Below are positions 29,565 to 34,089 of a stretch of 42,520 bases of DNA, piece by piece. The position numbers and the translations under genes were made by a program. The notes below the pieces were generated by a model. The model did no database searches and was not told the DNA's origin. It saw only the letters and a list, made by a program, of their open reading frames with translations. How positions within the stretch are numbered: position 1 is the first letter of the stretch; every line of letters starts with the position of its first letter. This DNA is from a virus, in the IMG/VR virus record IMGVR_UViG_3300045988_013082, positions 1 to 42,520 of that record; one strand, given 5' to 3'.

Positions 29565-29804
29565 TTACCACGGGTAGCTGATCGCCGCCCGCATTTCCTC
29601 GACCGGGATGCTCAGCGCCCGCATCAGCCGCAGCGTTTGCGGAAAGTACGCCGTCGGCCGCTTGAGCAGATTGTAAAGCGTAGGCCGTGAAACCCCGGCG
29701 TACTCCGCCGCCTTTTCCGGCTTCACGTTCTGCGCCCCCATCTCTCCGTGAATCATCACGGACAGGCGGTAATCCGTGTCCCGCTTGACTGCCAGTTTCG
29801 GCAT
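29565..29804 (-). CDS. HTH DNA-binding protein (early regulator or excisionase-like)
   Basis: 79 aa with a GAAGGAGGAA RBS. AAEYAGVSRPTLYNLLKRP is an HTH. Second gene of the Cro-side operon. Confidence 0.5.
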   Translation of the reverse strand: MPKLAVKRDTDYRLSVMIHGEMGAQNVKPEKAAEYAGVSRPTLYNLLKRPTAYFPQTLRLMRALSIPVEEMRAAISYPW

Positions 29805-29818
29805 TTCTCATTCCTCCT

Positions 29819-30007
29819 TCATCTCAGCAGATACCCGACTGTGACGCCGAAATAATCAGCAATTTTCTGAACCGTCGCCACAGAAGGTGAACTCTTTCGC
29901 AGATTCCACTTCCCAATCGTGCCATTTGCGATTCCGCACTCCCTTTCCAGAGCATAAATGCTGATTTTCCGTTTTTTGCACAGGCGCTTGATATTGTCGT
30001 ATACCAA
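29819..30007 (-). CDS. Cro-like XRE-family repressor
   Basis: 62 aa with a TTG start 11 nt after GGAGG. The whole protein is a single XRE HTH (ISIYALERECGIANGTIGKW...). It is divergent from the CI-like gene. Confidence 0.7.
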   Translation of the reverse strand: MVYDNIKRLCKKRKISIYALERECGIANGTIGKWNLRKSSPSVATVQKIADYFGVTVGYLLR

Positions 30008-30287
30008 TCTTTAATCAGCCTCCTTTCAATGTGTCGTAGATTTGTCAATAGACAAATCTCTGTTTCTCATCATAGATGAGAAAATTTTTTGTTTTTTTAT
30101 AGAGGGATGCGTCCACACTCTTGACATTCTTTAGAAATTAGGCTAAAATTGTTTTGTCAGACAAATAGCGTTTTTTGAAGCCTGTCAAGAGCGGGACGGT
30201 ATTTCTTTACCCTCTGATAGATATTATAATAGCCAATTAGCTAATTGTCAATAGCCAATCTTCTATTTTTAGAGAGTTTTTGATGCT
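30008..30287. promoter_or_regulatory. Lysis-lysogeny switch region with several palindromic operators
   Basis: GATTTGTCAATAGACAAATC (30039-30058), CTCATCATAGATGAG (30066-30080), TTTGTCAGACAAA (30153-30165) and CAATTAGCTAATTG (30234-30247). The plus-strand promoter is TTGACA (30121-30126), 17 nt, TAAAAT (30144-30149). Confidence 0.7.
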
Positions 30288-30656
30288 ATGAATAATAAGA
30301 ACAATGAGCAAAACAAAGTAATCGTTAACAACATCCGAACACTTGCTGCGTCCAGAAGGACAAATATTGCCACAATAGAACGCGAACTCGGAATTGGCAA
30401 CGGAACTATTGGGAAATGGGCAAAGGCCGCAAAAAGTCCGCCCTACGAAACCCTATATAAAATTGCGACGCATTTCGGTGTGACCGTCGCCGAGTTGACC
30501 GGAGAGGCGGACGAAAATGGTATAAAAAAAGAAACCATCACTTTCGGTGATGGTTTCACGGCCAAGCAGGCCAAAGGCATTGAACTTATAAAGTCTTTAT
30601 CTGAGGACGAATTAGATCGTGCTATGGCTGCGTTGGAAGCGTTCTTCAAAAAATAA
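30288..30656 (+). CDS. CI-like XRE-family repressor
   Basis: 122 aa with an N-terminal XRE HTH (IATIERELGIGNGTIGKW) and a C-terminal helical domain. It is divergent from the Cro-like gene. Confidence 0.7.
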   Translation: MNNKNNEQNKVIVNNIRTLAASRRTNIATIERELGIGNGTIGKWAKAAKSPPYETLYKIATHFGVTVAELTGEADENGIKKETITFGDGFTAKQAKGIELIKSLSEDELDRAMAALEAFFKK

Positions 30657-31189
30657 TGAAGAAGAAAGATGTTATTGCACTCTCCATTATTGCAGCTGTA
30701 TTTGTATTCGGCGGGGTTGGTGGTTTTGCATGGCAAATAGTAAAATTTAGACTTGACCCTCCTGATTTTGGAGGATTCAATATTAAACTCTTTTTACTAT
30801 TTGTTGTGATGATGGTATCTGGCGGAAAGCTAATTAAAGCCGTGCCAGACATTGGCCCATCAGAAATCAATAATATGACTGGTGTGCAGTTCGAAAACTA
30901 TGTGGCCGATCTGCTTCGCAAAAAAGGTCATTCCGTGCAGCTAACTCCAAAAACAGGCGACTACGGTGTTGACCTTATCATGGACGGACATGTAGCCATT
31001 CAGTGCAAGCGCTATGGAAAGGATGTCGGCGTAAAGGCCATTCAAGAGGTCTATTCCGGGATGCAGCATTACGGATGTAGCTCAGCCATTGTGGCCACAA
31101 ACTCAGTTTTTACCGCAAATGCAAAGACGTTAGCCAACGAGCTTGGTGTCATTCTCTGGGATGGCTCCACAATTTGCAGAGACATTTGA
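30656..31189 (+). CDS. Membrane-anchored Mrr-type (Mrr_cat) restriction endonuclease-like protein
   Basis: The start overlaps the CI stop (TAATGA). Two N-terminal hydrophobic helices are followed by FENYVADLLRKKGH...GDYGVDLIM...AIQCKRYG...V..IQEV...AIVATNSVFTANA, the Mrr catalytic core pattern. Confidence 0.7.
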   Translation: MKKKDVIALSIIAAVFVFGGVGGFAWQIVKFRLDPPDFGGFNIKLFLLFVVMMVSGGKLIKAVPDIGPSEINNMTGVQFENYVADLLRKKGHSVQLTPKTGDYGVDLIMDGHVAIQCKRYGKDVGVKAIQEVYSGMQHYGCSSAIVATNSVFTANAKTLANELGVILWDGSTICRDI

Positions 31190-31285
31190 GCGTGTAAACT
31201 GCTCGATAAACTCGTCCAGTTCACTTTCTGATAGCATGAGTAAGAGACTGATAGCTTTTTGTTCACGTTCTTCTCGACTTTTCAT
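31130..31285 (-). CDS. Small convergent ORF (51 aa) overlapping the 3' end of the Mrr-like gene
   Basis: ATG 31285 after GAGAGGAAAGGAA, giving MKSREEREQKAISLLLMLSESELDEFIEQFTRS.... It has its own promoter, and its last 60 nt are antisense to the nuclease gene. Confidence 0.4.
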   Translation of the reverse strand: MKSREEREQKAISLLLMLSESELDEFIEQFTRSNVSANCGAIPENDTKLVG

Positions 31286-31329
31286 TTCAATTCCTTTCCT
31301 CTCTCCGGTTCGTGTGTTTTCTGCTCTCA

Positions 31330-31358
31330 ATATTAAAACTTTTGTTCTATATAGTCAA
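31330..31358 (-). promoter_or_regulatory. Sigma-70-type promoter for the convergent small ORF / antisense transcript
   Basis: Minus strand reads TTGACT (31353-31358), 17 nt, TAATAT (31330-31335). Confidence 0.6.
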
Positions 31359-31376
31359 CCTGCACTTTGCACAATA

Positions 31377-31405
31377 TTGACGTAGTAAAATTCTATGCGC
31401 ATAAT
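31377..31405 (+). promoter_or_regulatory. Sigma-70-type promoter of the zinc-ribbon membrane protein gene
   Basis: TTGACG (31377-31382), 17 nt, CATAAT (31400-31405). It lies back-to-back with the minus-strand promoter. Confidence 0.55.
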
Positions 31406-31467
31406 TTTCAAGTGTCCGTACTATTGGACATGGTTTGTGATAGAAAAGAAAGAAGAGTGAAAATGAT

Positions 31468-32172
31468 ATGCGTAGGCCAGTGTATGAAGTAACCTGTCCG
31501 ATGTGCGGAGAGGTATTCGACGAGAGGTTGCGAAAATGTCCAAACTGCCGCGCGAAGAACCGGAAAGACGTGTGCCGCACTTGCGGAAACGAAATAAGCA
31601 AACAGGCCAGAAAATGCCCCGCTTGTGGTGCGCGTCACATGAAGAAGCTTTCAGACGGCGGAATTATCGCTATCCTCGTGACGCTGCTTCTTGTGGTGAT
31701 TATTCAAGAGCGCGTTATGGATATGCCAAATAGCGAGGCCGCAGTAGAAGACGCATCGAGTTTTGGAAGTTCCGCGGTTTCGGATGCACCGCCTGAGGCA
31801 CAAGCGGAAACGGACGATAAAAATGAAGTGGTTTCAAGAGAAAACTATATTGCGAAATGTGATGCCGTTTTGTATAACGATGTAGCGCGGAACCCGGATA
31901 GCTATGACGGTGAAAAGGTAATGTTTTCAGGCACCGTTATTCAGGTTTCAGAGGATGCGCTTGACTTATTCAGCACCAATTCAGTTGACTTCCGCGTTGA
32001 AACCTCTGATGGCATCTGGTATGTATCCTATAATCGGCCAGAGGGAGAGAGCCGAATCCTTGAGGGTGACTATATCACCTGCTATGGGGAGTGTGACGGC
32101 GTTACAACATATATCTCTGTGCTTGGCGGAAATGTCACCGTCCCGAAGCTCATTATGAAGTACCACGATTAA
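31468..32172 (+). CDS. Double zinc-ribbon / single-TM / extracytoplasmic-domain protein (moron)
   Basis: 234 aa with CPMCG...CPNC...CRTCG...CPACG, a hydrophobic helix (GGIIAILVTLLLVVII), an Ala/Ser/Glu-rich linker and a ~120-aa beta-rich C-terminal domain. Confidence 0.65.
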   Translation: MRRPVYEVTCPMCGEVFDERLRKCPNCRAKNRKDVCRTCGNEISKQARKCPACGARHMKKLSDGGIIAILVTLLLVVIIQERVMDMPNSEAAVEDASSFGSSAVSDAPPEAQAETDDKNEVVSRENYIAKCDAVLYNDVARNPDSYDGEKVMFSGTVIQVSEDALDLFSTNSVDFRVETSDGIWYVSYNRPEGESRILEGDYITCYGECDGVTTYISVLGGNVTVPKLIMKYHD

Positions 32173-32399
32173 CGTCTCAGGTGGGCATAACGCCTTGACA
32201 GGTAAAGCCGTAAACCATAGTCCTATGGGTGAGATCACCCCGCCGTCGAACCTCCCTGGCGGCGGGGCTTCGGCTTACCGCAAGCGAGTGGGAGCTTGCT
32301 TGCAAGTACAGAGTACGCTTTTCAAAGTTAACATTTCAAGTTCAAATCTTAACATTTTTTAGGAATAATCATGTATATTTCAGAAAGAAGTGACGTTTC

Positions 32400-33017
32400 T
32401 TGCACGATTCGACAATAAACGAGTATTGCAAAGCGGCCAAGGATCAAGCGTATCCAAAAATCACGAATCAGGAAATATGTGATAAAACGAACATCTCAGA
32501 TTCAACTTTGAACAACTTCTTCAGGGGCGCGACAAAAAATCCGTCCGTCTACCTCGTCGGCGATATTTGCCGTGCGCTCGACGTGTCATTAGATGAATAT
32601 TTCATGTTAAATTCTGAACATCTGCCATCTCAAGATCTGATTGATAAGATACACCAGCTGGAAGAAAAAAGCCATGAGTTGGAATCCGAGAATCATGCCT
32701 TGCAGCTTCAGCTTGCCGAGCTGTCCGGCTCTCTTGAAATGGCAAACGCAGAGATCAAGCACCAAAAAGAAAAGGCAGACTTTCTCCGTGCGCAGCTCAA
32801 AACGCGCCGCCCTGTGATCTATACCCTGATGTGCTCCTGCGCCGTCATGGCCTTCACCTTGCTGATCTACCTCGTTCTGGACTTCCGCGTCTCAGATGTA
32901 GGTTTTATCATAAATGGGAAACTGCAACCTGCGGCATGGATCGTGTTATGCACGATCGTTGCCGCAGTTGCCATCATCGCATGGTCAATCATCCATAACA
33001 CGAAACAGAGAAGGTGA
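32400..33017 (+). CDS. Membrane-tethered XRE-family HTH protein (HTH, coiled coil, two TM helices)
   Basis: A TTG start is forced by an in-frame TGA at 32391. The product has an HTH (ITNQEICDKTNISDSTLNNFFRG), a heptad-like region (LEEKSHELESENHALQLQLAEL...) and two hydrophobic helices. The stop lies 4 nt before the integrase ATG. Confidence 0.6.
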   Translation: MHDSTINEYCKAAKDQAYPKITNQEICDKTNISDSTLNNFFRGATKNPSVYLVGDICRALDVSLDEYFMLNSEHLPSQDLIDKIHQLEEKSHELESENHALQLQLAELSGSLEMANAEIKHQKEKADFLRAQLKTRRPVIYTLMCSCAVMAFTLLIYLVLDFRVSDVGFIINGKLQPAAWIVLCTIVAAVAIIAWSIIHNTKQRR

Positions 33018-33021
33018 AAAA

Positions 33022-34089
33022 ATGAAAGTCCCAGAGCCGCGCAAACTCCCCAGCGGCACATGGTTCATCCAAATGCGTCTGAACGGCATTAGCGTCCCCG
33101 TGTCCGCCTCAACAAAGAAAGAGTGTATCCGTCAAGCCCAGCTCATAAAAGCCGAACACAGAGCGGGGAAGAGGCGCTTCGTATTGACTGACATAACCGT
33201 AAAAGACGTGTTGGATGAATACATTGAAAAGAAAAGGGGAGGTCTTTCACCGTCCACCATTCAGGGGTATGAAAAAATAAGGGATCAATATTTTCGGTGC
33301 CTTATGGATGTAGCGATTAAATCCATTGATGCAGAAAAAGTCAACGACGCTATCTGCGCAGAACAGAAACGAACAAGCAAACGCGGAAGGCCGCTGTCTG
33401 CAAAAACAATATGCGAGGCATGGCATCTGATTTCAACCGCGCTGTCCAAAAAGGGGGTTAGCTTTTCCGGCGAAATTGATCTGCCAGAAATCAAGAAAAA
33501 GCCTGTTCAAATCCTATCATTTGAGCAGATATATCCAGCGATCAAAGGATCATCGATAGAATTGGAATGCCTGCTTGCTGCGCGGCTGAGTCTTTCGATG
33601 TCCGAAATTCGCGGCCTGACAAAATCCAAATCAATTCATGACGGAAAACTCACTGTCGTTGAAACCGTTGTGGATATTGGTGGAAAAGCAGTTCGGAAAG
33701 AGGGCGCAAAAGAAGTTGATCGTGTGCGAACTTTGGCGATCCCAGATTTCATACAAACGCTGATTGATGAAGTCGATGGAGATATTATCTGCGATAAGTC
33801 TTCGCAAACGATCAACAAACGTTACCAACGGTTGTTAGAAAAAGCCGGTTTGCCAAAGAGCAGTTTTCATAAGCTGCGTCACACATTCGCGTCAACCGGA
33901 GCTATGCTTCAAATTCAGCCAGAGATACTGCAAGAAGAGGGTGGTTGGCACACCGACCACACTATGAAGACCGTTTATACACATACATTCCCGTCCGCTC
34001 GCATTGCTGCCGACAAACTTCTCGACGAGCATTTTTCAAAAATAATTTTGCAAAATGCTAATGAAAATGCTAACGTAAACCAAGAGTGA
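33022..34089 (+). CDS. int: Tyrosine integrase
   Basis: ATG 33022 after GAAGGTGA. The product is 355 aa. The C-terminal HKLRHTFAS...GGWHTDHTMKTVYTHT carries the R-H-R-Y-type catalytic pattern. It lies next to attP. Confidence 0.9.
   Translation: MKVPEPRKLPSGTWFIQMRLNGISVPVSASTKKECIRQAQLIKAEHRAGKRRFVLTDITVKDVLDEYIEKKRGGLSPSTIQGYEKIRDQYFRCLMDVAIKSIDAEKVNDAICAEQKRTSKRGRPLSAKTICEAWHLISTALSKKGVSFSGEIDLPEIKKKPVQILSFEQIYPAIKGSSIELECLLAARLSLSMSEIRGLTKSKSIHDGKLTVVETVVDIGGKAVRKEGAKEVDRVRTLAIPDFIQTLIDEVDGDIICDKSSQTINKRYQRLLEKAGLPKSSFHKLRHTFASTGAMLQIQPEILQEEGGWHTDHTMKTVYTHTFPSARIAADKLLDEHFSKIILQNANENANVNQE

What the first reader, a model, noticed from the sequence alone, without database searches (positions are those of the whole stretch)
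30288..31358. Membrane-anchored Mrr-type nuclease co-transcribed with the CI-like repressor and opposed by a convergent promoter and small ORF
**Seen in the sequence**
- The ATG of the 177-aa gene overlaps the repressor stop (TAATGA), so it should be made whenever the repressor is made, that is, in the lysogen.
- The protein has two N-terminal hydrophobic helices followed by a complete Mrr_cat-type core (GDYGVDLI...IQCKRYG).
- A good minus-strand promoter (TTGACT-17-TAATAT, 31358 down to 31330) drives a 51-codon ORF with a strong RBS.
- The transcript of that ORF would be antisense to the last 60 nt of the nuclease gene.
- The small protein's SESELDEF segment resembles the C-terminal LSEDELDRA segment of the CI-like protein.

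**Inference:** this looks like a lysogen-expressed nuclease-type exclusion or abortive-infection module with an antisense or protein antagonist, in a toxin/antitoxin-like layout. Membrane tethering of an Mrr catalytic domain could position it to meet incoming DNA.
Basis: partly seen in the sequence, partly recalled or inferred. Interest (0 to 1): 0.66.

Follow-up and report, generated by a model that had tools for sequence, protein, structure and literature searches.

The report
SOS antirepressor beside cargo membrane nuclease
The small convergent gene is most likely not an antidote to the membrane-anchored nuclease but a DNA-damage-induced mimic of the prophage repressor's tail that wakes the phage, and the nuclease is an optional, probably defensive, passenger gene parked between the two.

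Summary
These are the TAATG overlap, two N-terminal hydrophobic helices plus an intact Mrr_cat core, the minus-strand promoter, a 51-codon ORF overlapping the nuclease 3' end by 60 nt, and the SESELDEF/LSEDELDRA resemblance.

The toxin/antitoxin-like reading is not supported. The small ORF family occurs in related prophage lysogeny modules that carry no nuclease. In one module it overlaps the repressor gene directly. About 200 other TM-Mrr_cat homologues have no such ORF.

Three features follow the small ORF instead:
- A clostridial LexA box (GAAC-N4-GTTY) sits at a fixed place in its promoter.
- It resembles the two-helix C-terminal tail of the cognate repressor (SW z 5.1 and 8.3).
- An intrinsic terminator is written on its strand into the repressor's linker codons (12 of 12 modules, at least 6 unrelated stems).

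My best reading is a LexA-controlled, SinI/AimX-like antirepressor of a short, non-cleavable repressor.

The nuclease is variable cargo expressed with the repressor. Its architecture matches the validated defence gene Epona. A SNIPE-like action on incoming DNA is plausible but untested.

Overall this is a new variant of known kinds, of moderate interest.

The parts
30288..30656 (+). Short CI-like repressor, 122 aa. HTH domain residues 4-71 (30297-30500), disordered linker 72-91 (30501-30560), two-helix tail 92-121 (30561-30650). No S24 peptidase domain.
   Evidence: Pfam HTH_3/HTH_26 only. PHROG transcriptional regulator/repressor families. AF2 model. The tail is exchanged as a module among homologues.
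30522..30557 (-). Intrinsic-terminator-like hairpin (11-bp stem, 5-nt loop, then T7) on the small-ORF strand, written into the repressor linker codons IKKETITFGDGF. Predicted 3' end of the SOS transcript.
   Evidence: Scan. Fold: the 61-nt window 30515-30575 (-), including a second small hairpin, has MFE -24 kcal/mol, z=-5.96. An equivalent hairpin + T-run over the linker is found in 12/12 representative modules with at least 6 unrelated stem sequences, against a background of 0.19 per kb per strand. Among close relatives the stem is invariant and only the loop varies.
30656..31189 (+). 177-aa membrane-anchored Mrr_cat (PD-(D/E)xK) nuclease. Hydrophobic helices about residues 6-29 (30671-30742) and 43-62 (30782-30841). 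Catalytic domain residues 71-175 (30866-31180). Core residues E80, D102/D106, Q116-x-K118. Translationally coupled to the repressor (TAATG).
   Evidence: Pfam, PADLOC domain-level hits, alignment, AF2 model, Foldseek MspJI/AF1548, PDB sequence hit 1y88.
31130..31285 (-). 51-codon small ORF, the candidate antirepressor. The N-terminal ~32 aa is the conserved part and resembles the repressor tail. The last 20 codons overlap the nuclease 3' end in antisense.
   Evidence: ORF list. Family of 30 clusters at 90% identity and 17 representative clusters. Excess of third-codon-position variation. Similarity to the tail.
31292..31301 (-). Shine-Dalgarno region (GAGGAAAGGA) of the small ORF.
   Evidence: Read from the sequence. 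Conserved AAAGGAA/GGAGG in relatives.
31330..31358 (-). Promoter of the small ORF: -35 TTGACT (31358-31353), 17-nt spacer, -10 TAATAT (31335-31330).
   Evidence: Scan, 9/12. The same layout appears in 13 distinct promoter variants of related modules.
31336..31347 (-). LexA (Cheo) box GAACAAAAGTTT, filling spacer positions 6-17 and abutting the -10 hexamer.
   Evidence: It is the only GAACNNNNGTTY in the 42.5-kb window. The same register is seen in the relatives. The clostridial LexA operator is GAACnnnnGTTT/C (PMC4234289).
29819..30007 (-). Cro-like HTH gene, first gene of the divergent lytic operon. It is on the same strand as the small ORF, which is why a terminator between them matters. Context only.
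   Evidence: Pfam HTH_3 E=1.5e-10. Consensus promoters at 30251..30223 (-) and 30121..30149 (+).

Best explanation
The interval holds two separable things inside a prophage lysogeny module.

**1. The nuclease (30656..31189)**
- It is an intact PD-(D/E)xK nuclease of the Mrr_cat family, held at the membrane by two N-terminal helices.
- In this phage it is made from the repressor transcript, so it is present in lysogens.
- It is optional cargo. Related phages carry it in three different N-terminal formats, at different positions, or not at all.
- Its most likely job (inferred) is defence of the lysogen against other phages. The membrane tether would keep the unspecific nuclease away from the chromosome and near incoming DNA. 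This matches the Epona architecture and the SNIPE principle.

**2. The small ORF (31285..31130)**
- It is not the nuclease's antagonist. It is most likely a LexA-repressed antirepressor.
- After DNA damage, LexA leaves the box in its promoter and the peptide is made.
- Its N-terminal helices resemble the repressor's two-helix C-terminal tail. The peptide would therefore pair with that tail and break up repressor oligomers (inferred, SinI/SinR- and AimX/AimC-like).
- This would induce a prophage whose 122-aa repressor has no self-cleaving domain.

**3. The SOS transcript**
- It then runs antisense through whatever cargo lies there and through the tail-coding part of the repressor gene.
- It stops at a terminator embedded in the repressor's linker codons, before it can read into the cro-like lytic operon on the same strand.

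**Shown:** anatomy, conservation, co-occurrence and sequence mimicry.
**Inferred:** LexA binding, peptide-repressor binding, termination, and the defence activity of the nuclease.
For: **Decoupling of nuclease and small ORF**
- Fifteen module architectures were recovered.
- The small ORF sits convergent to the end of the repressor operon, whatever the last gene is: Mrr_cat of 177-180, 301-304 or 366 aa, a 132-aa membrane protein, a 234-aa or 65-aa protein, or the repressor itself in L278.
- Six architectures have no Mrr_cat gene.
- The small-ORF HMM finds nothing near about 200 other Mrr_cat loci.
- Roseburia phage Jekyll carries a TM-Mrr_cat gene in an Xre+ImmA-type lysogeny operon with no such ORF.

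**LexA control**
- The box is the only GAACNNNNGTTY in the window and lies inside the promoter spacer.
- Of 1601 promoter-shaped sites in about 280 loci, 14 distinct ones carry the box (at most 1 mismatch) in this register. About 1 site is expected by chance. Thirteen of the 14 belong to this module, although their flanks are unrelated.
- The clostridial operator matches (PMC4234289).

**Mimicry of the repressor tail**
- hhalign of small ORFs against repressor tails gives P=7.7e-5 and score 24.5. Column shuffles give 9.2 +/- 2.1, maximum 19.4.
- Cognate pairs score best for the window (43, z 5.1) and for L278 (47, z 8.3, against at most 21 for non-cognate tails).
- L274 keeps the window's HTH domain, promoter and 5'UTR, but has swapped both the tail and the small ORF.
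- Tails and HTH domains recombine as modules.

**Repressor architecture**
- HTH, disordered linker and two helices, with no S24 domain.

**Terminator in the linker codons**
- Present in 12/12 representative modules.

**Coding signature of the small ORF**
- The ORF is preserved at 20-30% identity, third-position variation is in excess, and the RBS is conserved.

**Precedents**
- AimX/AimC with a LexA site (bioRxiv 10.1101/2025.11.23.689978).
- LexA-controlled antirepressors of the Gifsy phages (PMC3121763).

**Nuclease**
-.
- Epona (bioRxiv 10.1101/2024.07.02.601686).
- SNIPE (PMC13190303).
Against: - No experiment or transcript data exist. LexA binding, termination and peptide-repressor binding are all inferred.
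- The similarity between the small ORF and the tail spans only about 26-32 residues of amphipathic helix.
- An exhaustive profile search of 1.8 billion proteins with the small ORF did not retrieve repressor tails.
- Pfam SinI does not match.
- Cognate similarity is clear for only two classes. In L274 the small ORF scores better against a non-cognate tail.
- Some relatives lack the box next to the ORF (L261-L263). L271 has the box promoter but no recognisable small ORF.
- Membrane topology is only weakly indicated by the positive-inside rule.
- No homology test against Epona could be made.
- Defence activity of this nuclease is untested.
- In five or six architectures the small ORF does overlap a Mrr_cat gene. 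The antisense transcript would cover the whole nuclease gene, so some regulatory effect on the nuclease is not excluded.
Confidence: 0.68

Rival explanations
1. The nuclease is a toxin or abortive-infection effector, and the convergent small ORF or its antisense RNA is its dedicated antagonist, in a toxin/antitoxin-like pair.
For: - In the window and in L001-L011, L175 and L264-L269 the small ORF overlaps the 3' end of a Mrr_cat gene by 36-60 nt.
- The predicted transcript is antisense to the entire nuclease gene.
Against: - The small ORF is present without any nuclease in L252, L254-L256, L261 and L274-L279, and it overlaps the repressor itself in L278.
- The conserved residues lie outside the overlap, and the overlapping tail is variable or missing.
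- About 200 TM-Mrr_cat homologues, and phage Jekyll, have no such ORF.
- No PADLOC or TA family matches the small ORF.
- SOS control would remove, not supply, an antidote logic during normal growth.
Confidence: 0.06
2. The functional product is only the SOS-induced antisense RNA. It silences the repressor (and cargo) mRNA in cis or trans, and the small ORF is incidental.
For: - The terminator position guarantees antisense overlap with the 3' third of the repressor mRNA in every module.
- Convergent transcription with the repressor operon is built in.
- Antisense action was the original proposal for aimX.
Against: - The ORF, its RBS and its N-terminal 32 aa are conserved across variants down to 20-30% identity, with third-position bias.
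- The similarity to the cognate repressor tail is unexplained by an RNA-only role.
- In the arbitrium analogue, a start-to-stop mutation abolishes function and recoding of the overlap does not.
Confidence: 0.12
3. The nuclease serves the phage's own lytic programme or acts as a modification-dependent (type IV) restriction enzyme, rather than as a membrane-localised defence against injected DNA.
For: - The best fold matches are the type IV enzymes MspJI and AspBHI. PADLOC gives weak mREase_IV hits.
- One distant homologue (L025) has a LexA-box promoter directly upstream, so some family members may be SOS-induced.
Against: - The protein has no DNA-recognition domain, only two helices plus the catalytic core.
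- It sits in the repressor operon on the lysogenic strand and would be opposed, not induced, by the SOS transcript.
- It is dispensable cargo in related phages.
Confidence: 0.12

Closest known systems
AimX-AimC antirepressor/repressor pair of arbitrium phages (phi106, phiW23, BMBtp14; bioRxiv 10.1101/2025.11.23.689978; PDB 9iaq)
   Same: - Short HTH repressor with a disordered linker and a helical C-terminal oligomerisation domain, and no RecA-dependent cleavage.
- A 29-60 aa ORF convergent with, and sometimes overlapping, the repressor gene.
- A LexA site just upstream of the small ORF (phi106 family).
- A transcript antisense to the repressor.
- An occasional extra ORF between repressor and small ORF.
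   Different: - No AimR/AimP quorum-sensing genes here, so LexA appears to be the only input.
- The hosts are gut Clostridia, not Bacillus.
- No detectable sequence homology beyond the generic HTH (9iaq E=0.0066 on the HTH only).
- Here the small ORF shows direct sequence resemblance to its cognate tail.
- A terminator is embedded in the linker codons.
- The space between repressor and small ORF is a variable cargo bay that often holds Mrr_cat genes.
SinI/SinR of Bacillus subtilis (PDB 1b0n; PMC3163267)
   Same: A small helical protein resembling the repressor's C-terminal helical domain, which forms a heterodimer that abolishes repressor oligomerisation. This is the mechanistic model adopted here.
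   Different: - It is a chromosomal biofilm switch under Spo0A, not a phage switch under LexA.
- Pfam SinI does not match either partner here.
- The Foldseek match of the repressor model to 1b0n is not significant.
LexA-controlled antirepressors of non-cleavable phage repressors (coliphage 186 Tum, from my own knowledge; Gifsy GfoA/GfhA, PMC3121763)
   Same: The SOS signal reaches a non-cleavable repressor through a LexA-repressed small antirepressor gene.
   Different: - Those are proteobacterial systems with a CTGT-N8-ACAG box.
- The proteins are unrelated.
- Their antirepressors are not paralogues of the repressor tail and are not convergent with the repressor operon.
Epona (Vibrio cholerae superintegron cassette; bioRxiv 10.1101/2024.07.02.601686)
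   Same: A single protein made of a 2-transmembrane N-terminal part fused to an Mrr_cat nuclease domain, experimentally anti-phage (in E. coli).
   Different: - Its N-terminal part is described as holin-like, whereas no holin family matches here.
- It is an integron cassette, not prophage cargo.
- Sequence relatedness could not be tested because the sequence was not retrievable.
- Its mechanism is unknown.
SNIPE (PMC13190303)
   Same: An inner-membrane-anchored nuclease with a cytoplasmic catalytic domain. The tether prevents self-cleavage and places the enzyme where phage DNA enters.
   Different: - SNIPE has one TM helix, a DUF4041 DNA/tape-measure-binding domain and a GIY-YIG nuclease.
- The present protein has two helices, no DUF4041 and a PD-(D/E)xK core.

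Membership tests
Mrr_cat / PD-(D/E)xK nucleases (PF04471) | Profile match above the curated threshold | tested here: met
   E=3.5e-29, 101.7 bits against a cut-off of 21, residues 71-175.
Mrr_cat / PD-(D/E)xK nucleases (PF04471) | Catalytic E ... D ... (Q/E)xK residues present | tested here: met
   E80, D102 and Q116-C-K118 are invariant and D106 is nearly invariant (one exception) in 22 homologues. GD[YF]G[VI]D...Q.K is kept in all fetched loci. One close cluster (P0001) has D106Y.
Mrr_cat / PD-(D/E)xK nucleases (PF04471) | Restriction-endonuclease-like alpha/beta fold | tested here: met
   AF2 core pLDDT 86-96. Foldseek: MspJI E=4e-5, AF1548 E=5e-5. Profile hit to 1y88.
Epona-type single-gene defence (2 TM + Mrr_cat) | Two N-terminal transmembrane helices fused to Mrr_cat | tested here: met
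   Helices 3-33 and 43-62 followed by Mrr_cat.
Epona-type single-gene defence (2 TM + Mrr_cat) | Holin-like nature of the N-terminal part | tested here: inconclusive
   No holin or other family at E<=1 for residues 1-73.
Epona-type single-gene defence (2 TM + Mrr_cat) | Sequence homology to Epona, and anti-phage activity | not testable with these tools
   The Epona sequence or locus tag was not found in the paper text or the held supplement. Activity needs an experiment.
SNIPE | DUF4041 domain and GIY-YIG nuclease | tested here: not met
   Only Mrr_cat-type families match. The fold is PD-(D/E)xK.
Toxin-antitoxin pair (nuclease + small ORF) | The two genes co-occur as a conserved pair | tested here: not met
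   The small ORF occurs without the nuclease in 6 architectures. The nuclease family occurs without the small ORF in about 200 loci.
AimX/AimC-type antirepressor switch | Short HTH repressor with linker and helical C-terminal oligomerisation domain, and no S24 peptidase | tested here: met
   Pfam HTH only. AF2: HTH 4-71, linker 72-91, helices 92-103 and 106-121.
AimX/AimC-type antirepressor switch | Small ORF convergent with the repressor gene or operon | tested here: met
   Seen in the window and in all 15 architectures. There is a direct 53-nt overlap with the repressor gene in L278.
AimX/AimC-type antirepressor switch | LexA site upstream of the small ORF | tested here: met
   GAACAAAAGTTT at 31336-31347, in register in 13 promoter variants. 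Actual binding was not testable.
AimX/AimC-type antirepressor switch | AimR receptor and AimP peptide genes upstream of the small ORF | tested here: not met
   Immediately upstream of the promoter lies a divergent zinc-ribbon membrane protein gene (31468..32172). No large minus-strand ORF is adjacent.
AimX/AimC-type antirepressor switch | Physical binding of the peptide to the repressor's C-terminal domain | not testable with these tools
   No multimer prediction or experiment was available. Only sequence mimicry is shown.
SinI/SinR | The small protein resembles the repressor's C-terminal helices | tested here: met
   hhalign P=7.7e-5 with 0/300 shuffles as good. SW z 5.1 (window) and 8.3 (L278).
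SinI/SinR | Match to the Pfam SinI family | tested here: not met
   No SinI hit at E<=10 for small ORFs or tails.
Lambda CI / LexA-type self-cleaving repressors | C-terminal S24 peptidase domain | tested here: not met
   122 aa with only HTH families.

The most novel reading that the evidence does not exclude
One LexA-controlled transcript may do three jobs.
- It encodes a mimic of the repressor tail that dissolves the repressor.
- It runs antisense across the cargo nuclease and the tail-coding third of the repressor mRNA and silences both in cis. The membrane nuclease would then be switched off exactly when the phage's own DNA starts to replicate.
- It is stopped by a terminator written into the codons of the repressor's disordered linker. 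This would make 'tail + cargo + antirepressor + promoter' a self-contained cassette that phages swap as a unit.
Probability: 0.2. Interest if true: 0.62.

Novelty: new variant of a known kind. Interest (0 to 1): 0.45.

Why it matters
**Annotation.** The result corrects a tempting mis-annotation. A small convergent ORF next to a nuclease looks like an antitoxin, yet the comparative evidence says it belongs to the lysis-lysogeny switch.

**Reach of the mechanism.** If the reading is right, the recently described AimX/AimC logic is not confined to Bacillus arbitrium phages. It also operates, with LexA as the sole input, in uncultured temperate phages of gut Clostridia. In these phages the route from DNA damage to induction of short, non-cleavable repressors is mostly unknown.

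**Predictive signatures.** The analysis yields features that can be searched for:
- a Cheo box in the spacer of a convergent promoter;
- a peptide that resembles the repressor tail;
- an antisense terminator in the linker codons.

**Defence-gene hotspot.** The analysis also marks the gap between repressor and antirepressor as a hotspot where defence-type cargo accumulates, including three formats of membrane-anchored Mrr_cat nucleases.

Tried and rejected
- **DNA similarity.** A search of 29800-32400 against 50,697 phage records found nothing. tblastn of a small ORF against the same records found nothing.
- **Rfam.** No family in the window reaches the gathering score.
- **PADLOC.** Only domain-level hits of the Mrr_cat part (ZorD, PDC-S02, mREase_IV). 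None for the small ORF.
- **NCBIfam.** Nothing for the nuclease or the small ORF.
- **Wider surveys for the pair.** Genome contigs, metagenome contigs and viral contigs returned about 240 Mrr_cat loci. The small ORF appeared only in one phage lineage, and this is what turned me against the pair model.
- **Exhaustive profile search with the small ORF** (1.8 billion proteins). It found 17 clusters of small proteins but no repressor tails, so homology to the tail rests on targeted comparisons only.
- **Repressor model.** Foldseek against the PDB gave no significant hit. SinR and AimC appear only at E 0.05-0.15.
- **Pfam at E<=10.** Small ORFs and tails gave no SinI match. Pfam at E<=1 on the N-terminal 73 aa and on the cargo proteins gave nothing usable.
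- **Epona.** Its sequence could not be located.
- **A first regex to collect small ORFs missed several variants**. I replaced it with an HMM on stop-to-stop frames.
- **Ungapped upstream identities are meaningless** because of indels, and I did not use them.
- **Antisense-overlap artefact.** I considered that the small-ORF/tail similarity in L278 might come from the antisense overlap. I rejected this because an overlap would relate the two proteins in antiparallel order, and in the window the two regions do not overlap at all.
Full report
**1. What is at the coordinates**

The window is a phage-sized contig. Its lysogeny module lies on the + strand: repressor-like gene 30288..30656, a 177-aa gene 30656..31189, a 234-aa zinc-ribbon membrane protein, a 205-aa HTH-membrane protein, and an integrase up to 34089. 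A cro-like gene (29819..30007) and the lytic genes lie on the - strand.

- The repressor stop and the next ATG share TAATG.
- The 177-aa protein has two long N-terminal helices and an Mrr_cat domain (E=3.5e-29).
- A 51-codon ORF on the - strand (31285..31130) has a good ribosome-binding site and overlaps the nuclease 3' end by 60 nt.
- TTGACT-17-TAATAT lies at 31358..31330. It scores 9/12, which is unremarkable alone because the region holds 13 such sites against 4.7 expected.

**2. The nuclease is intact and belongs to a very broad family**

- In an alignment of 22 homologues, E80, D102, Q116 and K118 are invariant, and D106 is nearly invariant (one exception).
- Every Mrr_cat ORF in the roughly 250 fetched loci keeps GD[YF]G[VI]D...Q.K.
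- The AF2 model has a confident core (pLDDT 86-96). Its best PDB matches are the catalytic domains of MspJI (E=4e-5) and AF1548 (E=5e-5). A profile search also finds 1y88.
- So the 'degenerate core' refutation test fails to refute.
- Short proteins with hydrophobic N-terminal segments plus Mrr_cat are common in Clostridia, Actinomycetota and beyond. Of 221 distinct ORFs, 72% have at least one such segment.
- A protein with this architecture, Epona, is an experimentally validated anti-phage cassette.
- SNIPE shows how a membrane tether can both prevent self-cutting and place a nuclease at the DNA entry site, but SNIPE has different domains.

**3. Is the nuclease plus small ORF a conserved pair? 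No.**

- Full-length relatives (58-96% identity) do have a convergent small ORF, down to 27% peptide identity. At first this looked like support for the pair.
- An HMM of the small ORF found it only in one phage lineage among about 240 Mrr_cat loci. L175 is included, where the neighbour is a different, 304-aa Mrr_cat protein.
- I then searched from the small ORF itself (30 clusters) and from the repressor, and looked up their contigs.
- This gave modules in which the small ORF is convergent with:
  - a 132-aa membrane protein (L252, L254-L256, L261, L262, L276);
  - a 234-aa protein (L270);
  - a 65-aa protein (L274);
  - the repressor gene itself, with a 53-nt overlap (L278).
- Six architectures have no Mrr_cat gene at all.
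- The conserved part of the peptide is its N-terminal ~32 residues. The C-terminal tail that overlaps the neighbour is variable, or absent in the 38-40-aa forms.
- Roseburia phage Jekyll, a cultured phage, carries a Zn-ribbon-TM-Mrr_cat gene in an Xre+ImmA-type lysogeny operon with no such ORF.
- The nuclease is therefore exchangeable cargo. It occurs in three N-terminal formats and at different positions. The small ORF is a fixed part of the switch.

**4. What the small ORF tracks**

*(a) A LexA box.*
- The promoter spacer holds GAACAAAAGTTT (31347..31336), directly abutting the -10 hexamer. It is the only GAACNNNNGTTY in 42.5 kb.
- The same layout (-35, 5 nt, GAAC-N4-GTT[CT], -10) recurs in relatives whose flanking sequences are unrelated.
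- Among 1601 promoter-shaped sites in all loci, 14 distinct ones carry the box in this register with at most 1 mismatch, where about one site is expected by chance. Thirteen of the 14 belong to this module.
- GAACnnnnGTTT/C is the LexA operator used for Clostridium (PMC4234289).

*(b) The repressor's tail.*
- All repressors of these modules end in a two-helix tail behind a disordered linker (AF2 model).
- Tails and HTH domains are shuffled independently. One HTH domain occurs with at least 6 tails, and one tail occurs with at least 5 HTH domains.
- The small-ORF profile aligns to the tail profile with P=7.7e-5 and score 24.5. Three hundred column shuffles give 9.2 +/- 2.1, maximum 19.4.
- Cognate pairs stand out. 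The window pair scores 43 (z 5.1). The L278 pair scores 47 (z 8.3) over 32 residues, while all non-cognate tails score at most 21.
- L274 keeps the window's HTH domain, promoter and 5'UTR, but both its tail and its small ORF are replaced.
It points to the repressor, not the nuclease, as the partner.

*(c) A terminator.*
- On the small-ORF strand the first strong hairpin plus T-run is at 30557..30522. The 61-nt window containing it folds at -24 kcal/mol (z -6).
- It lies inside the repressor gene, over the linker codons IKKETITFGDGF.
- An equivalent element covers the linker in 12/12 representative modules, with at least 6 unrelated stem sequences. The background is 0.19 such sites per kb per strand.
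- The A-rich 'IKK' codons supply the U-run on the other strand.
- The predicted SOS transcript in the window is about 800 nt. It comprises the small ORF, the antisense of the whole nuclease gene, and the antisense of the tail-coding part of the repressor gene.
- It would stop before it can read into the cro-like operon on the same strand.

**5. Mechanism proposed**

The repressor is 122 aa and has no S24 peptidase domain, so it cannot respond to RecA by self-cleavage. My best reading has four steps.
1. LexA represses the small ORF.
2. DNA damage removes LexA.
3. The peptide, a mimic of the repressor tail, pairs with the tail and prevents repressor oligomerisation.
4. The prophage is induced.

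The anatomy, conservation and mimicry are shown. Binding, LexA control and termination are inferred.

The closest precedent is AimX/AimC of Bacillus arbitrium phages.
- There a 29-aa ORF sits downstream of a LexA site and is convergent with and overlapping a short HTH repressor.
- It forms a heterodimer through the repressor's C-terminal oligomerisation domain, and the authors liken it to SinI/SinR.
- In that system a start-to-stop mutation abolishes function, while recoding the antisense overlap does not. This argues against an RNA-only role.
- Here there are no AimR/AimP genes, the hosts are gut Clostridia, and no homology to AimC is detectable beyond the generic HTH (9iaq, E=0.0066).

LexA-controlled antirepressors of non-cleavable repressors are also known from the Gifsy phages (PMC3121763).

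**6. The nuclease's role**

- In this window it is translationally coupled to the repressor, so it is made in the lysogen. This is the usual position of prophage defence or exclusion genes.
- It has no DNA-recognition domain, so any selectivity must come from location.
- I therefore rate a membrane-localised defence (Epona architecture, SNIPE principle) as the most likely role. It remains an inference.
- Topology is only weakly indicated by charge: N terminus +2, inter-helix loop +1.
- A side effect of the layout is that SOS transcription runs antisense over the nuclease gene. That could shut it off at induction. This is the most novel reading left open (probability about 0.2).

**7. Verdict**

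A lysogen-expressed membrane nuclease with a possible defence role stands. The toxin/antitoxin-like pairing with the small ORF does not.
- The finding is a new variant of known kinds: an arbitrium-free, LexA-only AimX/SinI-type antirepressor switch with a cargo bay and a linker-embedded antisense terminator, together with an Epona-like cargo nuclease.
- Interest is moderate.

Noticed in passing
window 30042-30268 (promoters 30121..30149 + and 30251..30223 -): The repressor-side and cro-side promoters are near-perfect consensus (11/12 and 12/12). They face each other, so their transcripts would overlap by about 60 nt. Operator-like repeats TTGTCAATAG(A/C)CAA lie at 30042 and 30245, and a related TTGTCAGACAA lies at 30152.
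   Followed up: partly
window 30531-30557 versus L092/L007/L097: Among close relatives the 11-bp stem of the linker hairpin is invariant, while the 5-nt loop is TTTCG, CGAAA or CGGAA. TTTCG and CGAAA are reverse complements, as if the loop had flipped. This changes the peptide from FG to ES.
   Followed up: no
L025 3750-3830 (Clostridiaceae genome contig CAJTGI010000011.1): A promoter with a perfect LexA box in the same register (TTGACT-TCTAT-GAACGTATGTTC-TATTAT) lies directly upstream of a TM-Mrr_cat gene. Some members of the nuclease family may therefore themselves be SOS-induced.
   Followed up: no
L274 5502-5660 (-) and L261 2718-2930 (+): A second family of small ORFs (MSDEELRAAVSRGIARAME... 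and MLSEKEILQAVSNGIELAIRS...) lies convergent with and overlapping a 65-69-aa gene. In L261/L262 it sits directly behind a LexA-box promoter. In L274 it sits behind the first small ORF.
   Followed up: no
L253 2255-2392, L257 5217-5354, L001 2890-3027: A 45-aa peptide with one hydrophobic helix and a basic tail (MIDYLVENGWVDSFIRTAVTIGIYLGWK...RLHKN) follows the small ORF on the same strand. It would therefore be SOS-induced, and it resembles small membrane toxins or holin-like peptides.
   Followed up: no
L253 2415-2636: A second, N-terminally truncated copy of the small ORF overlaps the Mrr_cat 3' end, while an intact copy lies upstream. This looks like the scar of a cassette insertion of the '45-aa gene + Mrr_cat'.
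   Followed up: no
L271 6700-6790: The LexA-box promoter (TTGATA-TATTG-AAACGAATGTTT-TAGAAT) abuts the stop of a 411-aa cargo gene, but no member of the small-ORF family follows. The repressor there has yet another tail type.
   Followed up: partly
window 32400-33017 and 32914-34089: A 205-aa protein with an N-terminal HTH, a coiled coil and C-terminal hydrophobic helices precedes the integrase, and its ORF overlaps the longest integrase ORF. The same gene pair (a 129-239-aa, mostly ~197-aa, HTH-membrane protein plus integrase) is conserved in most related modules.
   Followed up: no
window 31468-32172: A 234-aa protein with a double zinc ribbon, one hydrophobic helix and a conserved C-terminal domain (PHROG 5319, annotated 'outer membrane protein'). 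It is transcribed divergently from the small-ORF promoter (promoter-like site at 31377..31405). It recurs as cargo in related modules.
   Followed up: no
P0001 (96% identical homologue cluster, 94 member sequences): This cluster carries D106Y in the GDYGVD motif, a likely inactivating change of a catalytic aspartate. It was not seen in any fetched locus.
   Followed up: partly
A7 alignment of repressor homologues: The repressors are strongly modular. The window's HTH domain is joined to at least 6 unrelated C-terminal tails, and the window's tail is joined to at least 5 unrelated HTH domains. The junction is at the linker that holds the antisense hairpin.
   Followed up: partly
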